Source of the DNA: Octopus vulgaris
Taxonomy: Eukaryota
Assembly (NCBI GenBank): GCA_951406725.2
Contig: OX597838.1
Span: forward strand, 22,630,001-22,694,000
Direction of reading: 5' to 3'
DNA length: 64,000 bases
Shown here: one piece after another, positions 1 through 55,135 of the stretch
Numbering within the stretch: the first letter of the stretch is position 1
Layout of the letters: every line of letters starts with the position of its first letter
Position numbers and translations under genes: made by a program
The notes under the pieces: model-generated
Databases searched by the model: none
Seen by the model: only the letters and a program-made list of their open reading frames with translations
Told to the model about the DNA's origin: nothing

Positions 1-485
1 AGTCGTAGGATCGCGGTTTCGATTTCCAGACCGGGCGTTGTGAGTGTTTATTGAGCGAAAACTCCTAAAGCTCCACGAGGCTCCGGCAGGGGGTGGTGGC
101 GATCCCTGCTGTACTCTTTCGCCACAACTTTCTCTCACTCTTTCTTCTGTTGACCTAAAATCACCACCACCATCATCACCACTAACATCAGCACCACTAC
201 CACCACCACCATCACCATCACCACTACCACCACTAACATCAGCACCACCACCATCACCACCATCACCACCACCATCACCACCACCATCACCACCATCACC
301 ACCACTATCACCACCACCATCACCATCACCACCACCATCACCACCACCATCACCACCACTGACATCAGCACTAGCCAGCGGGGTGGTGTCATTTGAAGGC
401 TAAAATCAATACGAAGCGCATTGTGACCAGCGATGTGTAGCAACATCTGATAGGCCTGGTCGGTCACGGTGAACACGGTGATTTC
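1..485 (+). mobile_element. tRNA-derived SINE (family C head, 5' end outside window) interrupted by an (ACC/ATC)n expansion
   Basis: 1-150 closely matches the reverse complement of 20040-20185 (B-box-like GGTTTCGAT, then GGGCGTTGTG..GAGCGAAAA..GCTCCACGAGGCTCCGGCAGG). Non-repetitive sequence at ~370-485 is taken to be its tail. Confidence 0.7.
160..372 (+). repeat. (ACC/ATC)n trinucleotide low-complexity tract
   Basis: CACCACCATCACCACC repeats. Confidence 0.95.
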
Positions 486-11751: not shown

Positions 11752-12083
11752 AGAGATGTACTTGCATAGCAAGCGACCTGATCTGAGATCGTGTATTCAA
11801 CGAAAAACAATTGCAGCGTGGAAGGTGTTTATAAGCCATTTAAAAAGCACACAAAAACCGTTAGATTCACTTCAACGTATAAATTTAATTTGTCAAAATA
11901 TTTGCGTCGCTTTGAGACCTCAACCTTATTCACTGACAAAATTAGATTTAGCGGAGACAAATAAAATTTAAATGTTGAAGTGAATCTAACGGTTTTTGTG
12001 TGTTTTTAAATGGCTTATAAACACCTTCCACGCTGCAATTGTTTTTGGTTCAGCACACGATCTCAGATCAGGTCGCTTGCTAT
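11752..12083. mobile_element. Inverted-repeat (fold-back) element, same family as 48562-48890, with a decayed HHR
   Basis: Arms ~11765-11890 and ~11960-12082 are reverse complements; the minus strand at 11889-11940 reads UUUGUCA-GUGAAUA..GCGAC-GCAA-AUAUUU-UGACAAA. Confidence 0.8.
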
Positions 12084-41108: not shown

Positions 41109-42330
41109 ATGCGCAAGAGTGGCTGTGTGGTAAGAATCTTGCTTCCCAACAACATGGTTCCGGATTCAGTCCCACTGCATGGCACCTTGGGCAAGTGTCT
41201 TCTACTATAGCCCCGGACCGACCAAAGCCTTGTGAGTGGATTTAGTTGACGGAGCCTAAAAGAAGCCCGTAGTGTATATATATATATATATATATTTATG
41301 AAAGAATGGAGTTGAACGACTTGTTAACAAATTTCCTTTATTTTCGACATATGTTTCGAAGGCTGCATATTCCTAATTCCGAAGGAATAAGGAGTACATT
41401 ATGCAGATTTCTCATCAGGAAAGGCAAGGAACTAATGTCGACATCAAAATGCACAAAAAAACTTTTAACTGACTGCTCTCAAGGAGCCCATGGCGATAAT
41501 GAGTGTCTGTTTATAAGGTGTGACGTCAGAGTGGCTGAATGTAGAAGAATCTAGAAGGATCTAAAGGTTCAAGGGTTCAAACGAAGTAGGAGGAGGGAGG
41601 CATAAGAATAGTAAGGTGAGAGGGTGCAGGTCAAAAGAATGGTGGGTTTAATTGATTTCTTTTATGAATGTGTGCCTGTGTGTGTGACTGTATATAACTG
41701 TCATAATGTGTGTATGTGTGTGTGTGAATGCGTGATTGTGTTTGTGGATGGGTAGATGTCAGAAAGCTGACAGCTGTGAGGTGAGGGGTCTGTGTCTGTG
41801 TGTTCGATTGTGTTTACTGTAGAGAAAGGGAAGTAGAGAGAGAAAGGGAGGAAGAGTCGGGCGAGGTGAGAGGCAACGCTGGAATGGGTAGTAGTTCTTG
41901 GAATTATAATAAAAACTTTTGACTATTGGGGTGAAATATAACAAAACTTTTTTGCAAATCGAGGGGTTATCTATATTAGTCACTATTCATATGAGTGAAA
42001 GGTGTGTCGTTTCCAGTGTAAACACCTGTAGGACCTTTCGACGATTGTATTTATTATATATATATATTTATGTATGTATGTATGTATGTATGTATGTATG
42101 TATGTATGTATGTATTTGTTATTTATGTCTTTTTTGTCCGCCGAAGCATCGCTTGACAACCGATGCTGGTGTGTTTATGTCCCCGTCACTTAGCGGTTCG
42201 CCAAAGAGACCGATAGAAGAAGTACCAGGCTTACAAAGAATAAGCCCTGGGGTCGATTTGTTCGACTAAAGTTCATGCTCCAGCATGGCCGCAGTCAAAT
42301 GACTGAAACAAGCAAAAGAATAAAAGAATA
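41109..42330 (+). mobile_element. SINE family A split by a ~760-bp HHR-bearing insertion
   Basis: Head at 41109-41275, 3' module at 42130-42330, insert at ~41297-42055. Confidence 0.8.
41333..41431 (-). ncRNA. Type I hammerhead ribozyme motif with long stem II and extended stem I
   Basis: UUCCUU-GCC-UUUC-CUGAUGA-GAA..CUGCAUA..UAUGCAG..UUC-GAAA-CAUAUG-UC-GAAA-AUA-AAGGAA: canonical core, GUC triplet, palindromic stem III ACAUAUGU. Confidence 0.9.
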
Positions 42331-47427: not shown

Positions 47428-47620
47428 AATACACACATACACATATATATATATATATATATATACAGATATACGACGGGTTTTTTTTTTCAGTTTCCGT
47501 CTACCAAATCCACTCATAACGCTTTGGTCGGACCGAGACTATATTAGAAGACACTTGCCCAAGGTGCCACGGAGTGGAACTGAACCCGGAACCATCAAGC
47601 TTCTTACCCAACAGCCACAT
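47133..47620 (-). mobile_element. SINE family A
   Basis: Reverse-complement match to 15298-15712. Confidence 0.85.
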
Positions 47621-48504: not shown

Positions 48505-48560
<56 letters not shown>

Positions 48561-48700
48561 TACGGAGATGTACTCGCATAGCAAGTAATTTGATCTGAGA
48601 TCGTGTGCTGAAACGAAAACAATTGCAGCGTGGAAGGTGTTTATAAGCCATTTAAGAAACACGCAAAAGCCGTTCGATTCACTTCAACATTTAAGTTTAA

Positions 48701-48750
48701 TTTGTCAAAATATTTTCGTCGCTAAAATCCGCGACCTGTTCACTGACAAA
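48701..48750 (-). ncRNA. Type I hammerhead motif, G3-C8 core variant
   Basis: UUUGUCA-GUGAACA-G-GUCGC(GGAUUUUA)GCGAC-GAAA-AUAU-UU-UGACAAA: perfect 7-bp stem I, perfect 5-bp stem II, palindromic stem III AAUAUU. Confidence 0.75.
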
Positions 48751-48766
48751 GTCCGTGCTGCATCTC

Positions 48767-48811
48767 CAGTGAACAGGTCGCGGATTTTAGCGACGAAAAT
48801 ATTTTGACAAA
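48767..48811 (+). ncRNA. Second G3-C8 hammerhead copy, stem I 5' strand truncated at the inversion junction
   Basis: CA-GUGAACA-G-GUCGC..GCGAC-GAAA-AUAUUU-UGACAAA. Confidence 0.55.
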
Positions 48812-48887
48812 TTAAACTTAAATGTTGAAGTGAATCGAACGGCTTTTGTGTGTTTCTTAAATGGCTTATAAACACCTTCCACGCTGC

Positions 48888-48961
<74 letters not shown>

Positions 48962-49011: not shown

Positions 49012-49570
49012 GTCAACACACCAACACCGGTTGTCAAGCAGTGGTGGGAGACAAGCACTAACGCACACACACATACACGTACATACGACAGGCTTCTTTC
49101 AGTTTCCATCTACCAAATCCCAAGGCTATAGTAGAAGACACTTGCCTAAAGTATCACGCCTGTCCTTATCTTTTATTCAATGTGGCTGTTTGGTTAGAAG
49201 TTTACTTCCCAACCTCATGGTGCCGGGTTCAGTTCCGCAGCGTGGCACCTTGGGCAAGTGTCTAGTACTATAGCCTCTGGCGTGGATTTGGTAGGCGGAA
49301 ACTGAAGGAAGCCCGTCGTATGAATATATACATGTGTGTATGTGTATCATTGTGCTTGTTTCCCTGTCATTCACCAACACCTGACTGCTGGTGTTTGTTT
49401 GTTTACGTCCCGTTAACGTAGAAGTTCAGCCAAAAAGACCGATAGGGTAAGCATCAAGCTTGAAGAAAAAATAAGTATAGGGTGTCGATTCATTCAATTA
49501 AACAAAAAAAAAAAAAGAGCTTTCATCGGTACCCCAGCATGGCCACAGTTCTATGACTGAAACAAGTAAA
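49012..49570. mobile_element. Two diverged SINE family A copies, head to head (minus 49012-49158, plus 49181-49570)
   Basis: Family A motifs in both orientations. Confidence 0.75.
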
Positions 49571-54535: not shown

Positions 54536-54750
54536 AACACGCCGGACAAAATACTTAGCGGTACTTCGTCCGTCTCTACGTTCTGAGTTCAAATTCCGCC
54601 GCGGTCAACTTTACCTTTCATCGTTTCGGGGTCGATAAAATAAGTTGCAGTTGAACACTGGGGTCGATATAATAGACTCATTCCCTCCCCATAAATTGCT
54701 AACATTGTGGCAAAATTTGAAACCATTATTATTATTATTATTATTATTAT

Positions 54751-54791
<41 letters not shown>

Positions 54792-55135
54792 TTATTATTA
54801 CTACTACTACTACAGCTATTACTACTACTACTACTACTATTATTACTACTACTACTAGTACTACTACTACTACTACTACTGCTATTACTACTTCTGCTAC
54901 TACTACTATTATTATTATTATTATTATTGAAGTGGTGAGGTGGCAGAATCGTTAGCACGCCGAGCAAAATGCATAGAGGTATTTCGTCCGTCTTTACGTC
55001 TGGGTTCAACTTCCGCCGAATCCGACTTTGCCTTTCATTTCTTTCGAGGTCAATGAAAAAAGTGACAGTTACGCACTAGGGTCGATGTAATCGACAAATC
55101 CCTTCACCGAATTTCGGGACTTGTTCCTGTATGGG
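54535..55135 (+). mobile_element. Two SINE family B copies (54535-54723, 54931-55135) separated by (TAT/TAC)n
   Basis: Match to 46889-47060. Confidence 0.8.

What the first reader, a model, noticed from the sequence alone, without database searches (positions are those of the whole stretch)
48562..48890. G3-C8 inverted-core hammerhead carried on both arms of a fold-back element
Seen: what looks like a MITE is two head-to-head copies of an HHR unit with core GUGAACA (the 3-8 pair flipped to G-C), a perfect 7-bp stem I and a perfect 5-bp stem II. The right copy is truncated inside stem I at the junction. Together with the C-G and U-A cores elsewhere, three Watson-Crick states of one tertiary pair occur in this window, which is covariation support for a functional fold. 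Standard CUGANGA searches would miss this motif. Established: inverted pLTR arrangements are typical of PLE insertions. The UUU triplet is suboptimal.
Basis: partly seen in the sequence, partly recalled or inferred. Interest (0 to 1): 0.78.

Follow-up and report, generated by a model that had tools for sequence, protein, structure and literature searches.

The report
Flipped-core hammerhead in octopus retrotransposon
This is a short piece of a Penelope-type jumping gene, present in about 8,000 copies in this likely octopus genome, whose RNA is predicted to fold like a self-cutting hammerhead ribozyme with two paired core letters swapped (G-C instead of the usual C-G); it likely still cuts slowly, but cutting is untested.

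Summary
Observation confirmed. The element is not a MITE. It is a short two-arm insertion of the pLTR of a Neptune-type Penelope-like element (PLE); a full pLTR-ORF-pLTR copy exists elsewhere. The left arm holds a complete minimal type I hammerhead with core GUGAACA; the right copy lacks most of stem I. G3-C8 is the family consensus: 93 of the first 100 of 8,147 matches, and 82 of 100 in the oldest-looking stratum. The sister PLE in the same genome (54% protein identity) has C3-G8 at the same place, with other compensatory stem changes; farther relatives have U3-A8 or C3-G8. So the flip is a real compensatory double change. Cleavage is not shown. Inserted copies start upstream of the ribozyme, with no excess at the cut site (2 of 36). 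Unpaired G3-G8 copies are over-represented. The two arms lie on opposite strands and cannot dimerise with each other. No natural G3-C8 hammerhead turned up in 10 paper searches, but one key paper was unavailable. The scan noted two similar candidates on other genomes. Verdict: new variant of a known kind.

The parts
48560..48765 (-). Long arm: short PLE copy from the likely RNA start through the hammerhead and ORF start to the distal 3' end (+205; +1 = 48763)
   Evidence: 99-100% identical to the 40 best-scored genomic copies; collinear with the pLTR and ORF start of a full element
48701..48750 (-). Complete minimal type I hammerhead: stem I 48744-48750 with 48701-48707; G3 48743; C8 48738; A9 48737; extra G 48736; stem II 48731-48735 with 48718-48722; GAA 48715-48717; palindromic stem III 48709-48714; U17 48708; predicted cut between 48708 and 48707
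   Evidence: covariation with relatives
48560..48651 (-). First 31 codons of the PLE ORF (MAYKHLPRC...)
   Evidence: identical translation at the ORF start of full copy L065
48560..48620 (-). PLE tail: about 60 nt between the two 3'-end classes, on one arm only
   Evidence: 3' ends are bimodal, 32 at +138..150 and 54 at +195..210 of 89 arms
48766..48766 (-). Single non-templated G at the junction, in front of the likely RNA start; possibly a copy of the cap
   Evidence: sequence; 18 of 35 free 5' ends carry G here, where the template has T or C
48767..48891 (+). Short inverted arm, +19 to +143: hammerhead core, stems II and III present, 5' strand of stem I mostly lost, no tail
   Evidence: differs from the long arm at 1 of 125 positions (+101)
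48507..48559 (.). Left (TA)n target
   Evidence: sequence
48892..48925 (.). Right (TA)n target; a target-site duplication cannot be read here
   Evidence: sequence

Best explanation
This is a short, two-arm insertion of the pLTR of a Neptune-type Penelope-like retrotransposon, and its pLTR carries a minimal hammerhead whose 3-8 core pair has flipped from C-G to G-C; the ribozyme is likely still active but slow, and would need a second same-strand copy and probably the element's protein to cut. Shown: the pLTR is joined to an RT plus GIY-YIG ORF elsewhere; G3-C8 is fixed in the family; the sister family has C3-G8; two-arm insertions nearly always pair one tailed with one untailed arm. Inferred mechanism: a capped RNA starts about 15 nt upstream of stem I. 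The PLE protein nicks both strands of an AT-rich target about 12 nt apart and primes reverse transcription at two internal sites (+145 and +205). Two cDNAs, sometimes from different RNA molecules, are joined head to head. The templates are uncut RNAs, so cleavage would act at another step, such as processing the tandem pLTR-ORF-pLTR transcript. This particular locus is a passive copy.
For: Partner ORF: L015/L031 run into a GIY-YIG C-terminus; L065/L066 is a pLTR-ORF-pLTR copy with the GUGAACA hammerhead in both pLTRs. Conservation: 93 of the first 100 of 8,147 matches are G3-C8, with 13 control matches; 82 of the first 100 of 534 in the oldest-looking loop type, none C3-G8. Of 17 columns that separate three subfamilies, 0 fall in the 42 core and stem positions and 5 in loop II (p about 0.02, or 0.06 counted as 12 events). 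Sister family: C3-G8 at the same site upstream of the ORF start in both a young and an old subfamily. Tree: this family plus sister 99/99, with a C3-G8 relative outside at 89/95. Seven related hammerheads: pair 3-8 is paired in 7 of 7 (C-G 4, U-A 2, G-C 1); 9 of 12 pairs have two-sided changes, 0 of 500 shuffles as high. The C3G/G8C double mutant partly restores cleavage of a PLE hammerhead, which needs the protein (PMC11167929). Architecture: 70 of 75 head-to-head pairs are long plus short; 26 of 40 readable duplications are 11-14 nt; 4 of 28 typed pairs have arms of different subfamilies.
Against: No cleavage data. No pile-up of 5' ends at the cut site: 2 of 36, p = 0.69. C8-to-G, which unpairs the core, is over-represented: 35 of the first 100 of 409 position-8 variants, and 3 of 80 arms against 10 of 4,292 at other non-CpG C/G sites. 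The extra base after A9 is G, whereas the published consensus has H. The predicted fold pairs G3 with U17, extending stem I. The stem III self-duplex is only -0.2 kcal/mol. The young sister and L266 have C at position 9, so cores in this clade drift. In one search the structure was drawn from one of the sequences, two of seven rows were misaligned, and the rows were picked by a hammerhead-like pattern. Hammerhead mutants do not impair PLE insertion in vitro.
Confidence: 0.6

Rival explanations
1. The motif descends from a hammerhead and its fold is conserved, but it no longer cuts; it is kept as a 5' UTR structure for protein binding, promoter or translation control.
For: Copies come from uncut RNA; G3-G8 excess; several core deviations in the clade; G3-U17 alternative pairing.
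Against: The 3-8 pair matters in the active conformation, yet it is paired in 7 of 7 lineages in three states; U4, G5, A6, G12-A14 are retained.
Confidence: 0.26
2. The hammerhead is a dead relic. Two chance changes happened to re-pair 3 and 8 in one master copy, which then amplified neutrally.
For: High identity among copies mostly reflects recent amplification (1.7-4.7% from subfamily consensus); the avoidance test is only p = 0.02-0.06.
Against: An exact compensatory flip, plus compensatory changes in stems I, II and III against the sister, across 46% protein divergence.
Confidence: 0.1
3. The element is a MITE or fold-back DNA transposon with terminal inverted repeats.
For: 125-nt near-perfect inverted arms, no coding capacity, high copy number.
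Against: Many copies have one arm only; junctions vary; ends are asymmetric (70 of 75 long plus short); duplications are mostly 11-14 nt; the unit is continuous with an RT plus GIY-YIG ORF.
Confidence: 0.02
4. The fold-back is a sequencing or assembly artefact.
For: Perfect palindromes can come from chimeric reads (general knowledge); no reads were examined.
Against: 75 similar pairs with different junctions, flanking duplications and arms that differ in sequence.
Confidence: 0.02

Closest known systems
Minimal type I hammerheads of Penelope-like elements (Cervera and de la Pena 2014, PMC4209133)
   Same: Located in the pLTR; extra nucleotide between 9 and 10.1; G10.1-C11.1; short palindromic stem III; mostly scattered solo copies; opposite-strand pairs 100-700 bp apart already noted.
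   Different: Core pair is G3-C8; the text and supplement passages seen report C3-G8 and U3-A8 only. The extra base is G, not H. Stem I is 7 bp, longer than the 4-5 bp described for Schistosoma.
PAc, Poseidon PLE of Anolis (Frangieh et al. 2024, PMC11167929)
   Same: Hammerhead near the ORF start; two internal RT start sites give the tail; AT-rich targets; uncut RNA is the insertion substrate.
   Different: G3-C8 exists there only as an engineered double mutant. Here the hammerhead lies wholly in the 5' UTR, the tail is about 60 nt rather than 30-40, and the ORF is Neptune-type.
Neptune clade of EN+ PLEs (Craig et al. 2021, PMC8557442; Arkhipova et al. 2013, PMC3846280)
   Same: [quoted passage not shown]
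   Different: Most copies are about 200-nt pLTR-only units starting at one fixed point; duplications centre on 12 nt. Clade assignment rests on motifs, not on a tree with named references.
Natural hammerhead core variants (Perreault et al. 2011, PMC3088659)
   Same: Compensatory change at the 3-8 pair in nature.
   Different: That paper's section on core variation reports U3-A8, not G3-C8.
Non-LTR retrozymes (bioRxiv 10.64898/2026.07.22.740005)
   Same: Non-autonomous, hammerhead-bearing, pLTR-related units.
   Different: Retrozymes are head-to-tail tandem arrays; this family is mostly solo or head-to-head, with PLE tails.

Membership tests
Penelope-like element (EN+) | Single ORF with RT and C-terminal GIY-YIG endonuclease linked to the repeat | tested here: met
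   ORF with DKS, SLYPS, GGAIG, YVDD, VYQI..YIGET motifs joined to the unit. The protein itself has no Pfam hit; 3 of 23 aligned relatives hit RVT_1 and 3 of 23 hit GIY-YIG.
Penelope-like element (EN+) | pLTR repeats flanking the ORF and overlapping its start | tested here: met
   L065/L066
Penelope-like element (EN+) | Optional tail at one end, inverted 5'-truncated copy, short target duplication | tested here: met
   the duplication search had no shuffle control
Neptune clade | CX2-5CxxC linker before the endonuclease, CCHH motif | tested here: met
   C-QSN-C-AV-C precedes the GIY-YIG motif; Nematis shares the linker
Neptune clade | RT phylogeny with named Neptune references | not tested
   The tree held no named reference elements
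Minimal type I hammerhead | Three-way junction closed by stem I, stem II starting G10.1-C11.1, palindromic stem III | tested here: met
   left arm only
Minimal type I hammerhead | Core CUGANGA (or U3-A8 variant) and GAAA, NUH | tested here: not met
   Core is GUGAACA; U4 G5 A6 A9 G12 A13 A14, A15.1-U16.1 and H17 are met; 3-8 can pair as G-C
Minimal type I hammerhead | Extra H nucleotide between 9 and 10.1 | tested here: not met
   Extra base is G, shared by all 7 aligned relatives
Minimal type I hammerhead | Self-cleavage after N17 | not testable with these tools
   Genomic proxy negative; no read data obtained
Rfam hammerhead families | Covariance-model match | tested here: not met
   No hammerhead family at E <= 10 on the 87-nt stretch
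MITE / DNA transposon | Fixed symmetric terminal inverted repeats and fixed short duplication | tested here: not met
Non-LTR retrozyme | Head-to-tail tandem units each with a hammerhead | tested here: not met
   Window copy is head to head; short tandem arrays were seen only at a few loci such as L089

The most novel reading that the evidence does not exclude
This is the first natural, catalytically active G3-C8 hammerhead lineage, completing natural covariation of the 3-8 tertiary pair. It is deliberately slow so that uncut RNA can be reverse-transcribed, the excess G3-G8 copies are surviving traces of the one-step intermediate, and the long-plus-short arm rule records a PLE dimer priming two RNAs at two fixed sites.
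Probability: 0.3. Interest if true: 0.72.

Novelty: new variant of a known kind. Interest (0 to 1): 0.5.

Why it matters
The C3-G8 pair is a key contact of the active hammerhead. G3-C8 was known in the papers seen only as an engineered, partly rescued mutant. A natural version fixed in a recently active family of about 8,000 copies, beside a C3-G8 sister, is a ready-made test of whether PLE hammerheads must cut. It also means CUGANGA-based surveys undercount ribozymes, and some PLE families called hammerhead-free may carry flipped cores. The copy-end statistics give in-genome support for insertion from uncut, probably capped RNA primed at two sites.

Tried and rejected
Rfam: only microsatellite-driven miRNA matches among the listed rows; no hammerhead on the motif. 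The GIY-YIG ORF next to copy L030 is in the opposite orientation and belongs to another PLE; rejected as partner. Splicing at the acceptor-like site in front of +1: no shared upstream exon among copies, so a transcription start is preferred. Cleavage footprint in 5' ends: none. A C3-G8 ancestor inside this family: the 330 C3-G8 matches belong to the sister lineage in all 33 loci read and in 2 of 3 more, the third being unrelated. G3-G8 as a single ancestral stratum: rejected, it is scattered over all subfamilies and is 5 of 100 in the oldest-looking type. Dimer formation between the two arms: impossible on one RNA. A sister-family match at window 54725-54928 was low-complexity noise. PDB search gave only a weak RT match. 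RNA expression, start site and cut ends remain open because no sequencing reads were examined. The DNA context of the closest protein homologues P0002-P0030 was not seen. Three relevant papers were not held.

Full report
Observation. The element spans 48560-48891 between two (TA)n runs, with 125-nt arms that are 99% complementary. The minus strand of the left arm carries a full minimal type I hammerhead: 7-bp stem I, core GUGAACA, one extra G, 5-bp stem II, GAA, palindromic stem III AAUAUU and U17. The right copy starts 2 nt before G3 and cannot form stem I. A strict descriptor finds 1 hit in the window and 0 in 100 control windows. C3-G8 and U3-A8 candidates exist elsewhere in the window but are unrelated in sequence. 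Positions below count from +1 = 48763.

What it is. The 205-nt unit is a large young repeat: the 40 best-scored of 1,186 candidates are 99-100% identical, a 27-mer has 6,061 exact matches, and a hammerhead-anchored pattern has 8,147 against 13 for its control. Longer copies run upstream through a microsatellite-rich spacer into a GIY-YIG C-terminus. Locus L065/L066 is a full pLTR-ORF-pLTR element, frameshifted, with the same hammerhead in both pLTRs. The ORF starts 56 nt after the predicted cut, and the window's left arm holds its first 31 codons. The ORF has PLE RT motifs and a Cys-rich linker, pointing to the Neptune type as described in PMC8557442 (passages); no named-reference tree was built. 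The closest protein hit is labelled Octopus vulgaris by its source and matches this genome at up to 100%, so the host is likely an octopus.

Insertion pattern. In 89 arms sampled by a downstream anchor (88 of 90 loci used; 9 more dropped as duplicates of one junction), 3' ends fall in two classes: 32 at +138..150 and 54 at +195..210. 5' ends pile up at -5..+8 in 37 of 89. Among 35 free 5' ends that begin at the AG, 18 have a non-templated G in front (p = 0.0007 against 25%), as does the window copy. This suggests a capped transcript; an internal TATA-less promoter is known for Penelope (PMC2377424: abstract, one section and passages). In 219 loci, 75 head-to-head pairs were found: 70 long plus short, 3 long-long, 1 short-short, 1 unclear. 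Outer direct repeats were TA-only in 19, absent in 16 and readable in 40, of which 26 are 11-14 nt (no shuffle control; the set includes 29 loci chosen for a full-length long arm). Four of 28 typed pairs have arms with different subfamily loops. At +101, pairs are TT 57, CT 15, CC 1, as expected for independent draws, but at +121 arms are correlated (CT 8 against 29 expected). I infer that arms sometimes come from two RNAs; a mutation hotspot or gene conversion is not excluded. This fits PAc, which nicks and extends both strands and starts reverse transcription at two internal sites (PMC11167929, parts 1-2 of 4). One-sided tails and inverted pLTRs are already known (PMC3846280, passages).

Is the flip real? 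G3 with C8 is in 93 of the first 100 matches, 100 of 110 hits in fetched loci and 82 of the first 100 in the oldest-looking loop type, where none is C3-G8. Three subfamilies (41, 28 and 56 of 149 arms; 24 untyped) differ at 17 columns: 5 in loop II, 12 outside the ribozyme, 0 in its core or stems (p 0.02-0.06). The sister PLE, 54% identical over 815 residues, has a hammerhead at the same place. Its old subfamily (330 matches) reads UGUCA CUGAAGA G GUCAC...GUGAC GAAA against UGUCA GUGAACA G GUCGC...GCGAC GAAA here: two double changes, both compensatory. Its young subfamily also has C3-G8, with C at position 9. Of the nine closest metagenome relatives inspected, four show a hammerhead: two C3-G8 and two U3-A8. 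A 14-row tree (one locus dropped for lack of a usable ORF) joins this family with the sister at 99/99 and a C3-G8 relative at 89/95, so G3-C8 is derived. On seven aligned hammerheads, pair 3-8 is paired in 7 of 7 and 9 of 12 pairs show two-sided change. That test is lenient: two rows were misaligned and the structure came from this sequence.

Does it cut? For: retention of the pair in three states; partial rescue by C3G/G8C in a PLE hammerhead and in general (PMC8495972, one passage). U17 may be favourable with G3, since a G3-C17 pair would mirror the inhibitory C3-G17 pair discussed in PMC3884650 (passages); this is my inference. Against: no excess of 5' ends at the cut (2 of 36), although PAc also inserts from uncut RNA. 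The predicted fold pairs G3 with U17, and the extra base is G where the published consensus has H. C8-to-G is over-represented: 35 of the first 100 of 409 position-8 variants against 11 G3-to-C family copies in the first 100 of 229 position-3 variants, and 3 of 80 arms against 10 of 4,292 background (p = 0.0009). G is the ancestral base at 8, so this may be a relic allele, but it is spread over all subfamilies and is unexplained. At this locus the two hammerheads cannot act together: they are on opposite strands and a read-through RNA forms a duplex of about -226 kcal/mol.

Novelty. PLE minimal hammerheads and natural U3-A8 are known (PMC4209133: parts 1-2 of 4 and supplement file 2 passages, file 1 not searchable; PMC3088659: section 8 and passages). 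Ten library searches found G3-C8 only as an engineered mutant. Lunse et al. (PMC5785218, title seen in the reference list of PMC6765202) and two kinetic papers were not held; their alignments could contain G3-C8 rows. The retrozyme preprint was read in part 1 of 5. The scan holds two unchecked notes of G3-C8 candidates behind PLE RTs in other genomes and none for this sequence or genome.

Verdict. PLE origin about 0.97; hammerhead descent with a true compensatory flip about 0.9; present-day cleavage about 0.55-0.6. New variant of a known kind, interest 0.5.

Noticed in passing
window 11753-12083: A second, older two-arm copy of the same PLE family (85-91% identity), with a decayed hammerhead and both arms reaching into the tail.
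   Followed up: partly
window 34653 (-), 16964 (-), 43665 (+): Three other hammerhead candidates from unrelated repeats: two C3-G8 and one U3-A8, with palindromic stem III and imperfect stem I.
   Followed up: partly
L262:1829-1878 and L266:2489-2538: The young, active sister PLE (1,312-aa intact ORFs) and a metagenome relative both have C at core position 9; L265 has U15.1-A16.1. This clade accumulates hammerhead core variants.
   Followed up: partly
G000, position +26 of the unit: Excess of C8-to-G copies across all subfamilies; relic allele or hotspot, unexplained.
   Followed up: partly
L069:2075-2050 (-) and other long copies: A branch-point-like ACTAAC, a pyrimidine tract and AG lie directly in front of +1, resembling a splice acceptor that coincides with the inferred transcription start.
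   Followed up: partly
L150, L182, L185, L186, L191, L201, L213, L220, L221, L224, L343, L446: Twelve loci on C1 share one identical two-arm junction, so one insertion was carried along inside a larger repeat.
   Followed up: no
L428, L170, L114: Single insertions whose two arms belong to different subfamilies, suggesting two RNA templates.
   Followed up: partly
L263:7692-9500 and L262 ORF: The sister PLE ORF has a long asparagine-rich insert, like those described for rotifer Penelope elements.
   Followed up: no
window 41986-42129: Weak tblastn match (35%, E 2e-6) to the GIY-YIG end of another PLE-like ORF.
   Followed up: no
window 47500-47600 and 49065-49340: Fragments of a frequent interspersed repeat that also flanks many fetched loci; probably a SINE (label recalled, not from a call).
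   Followed up: no
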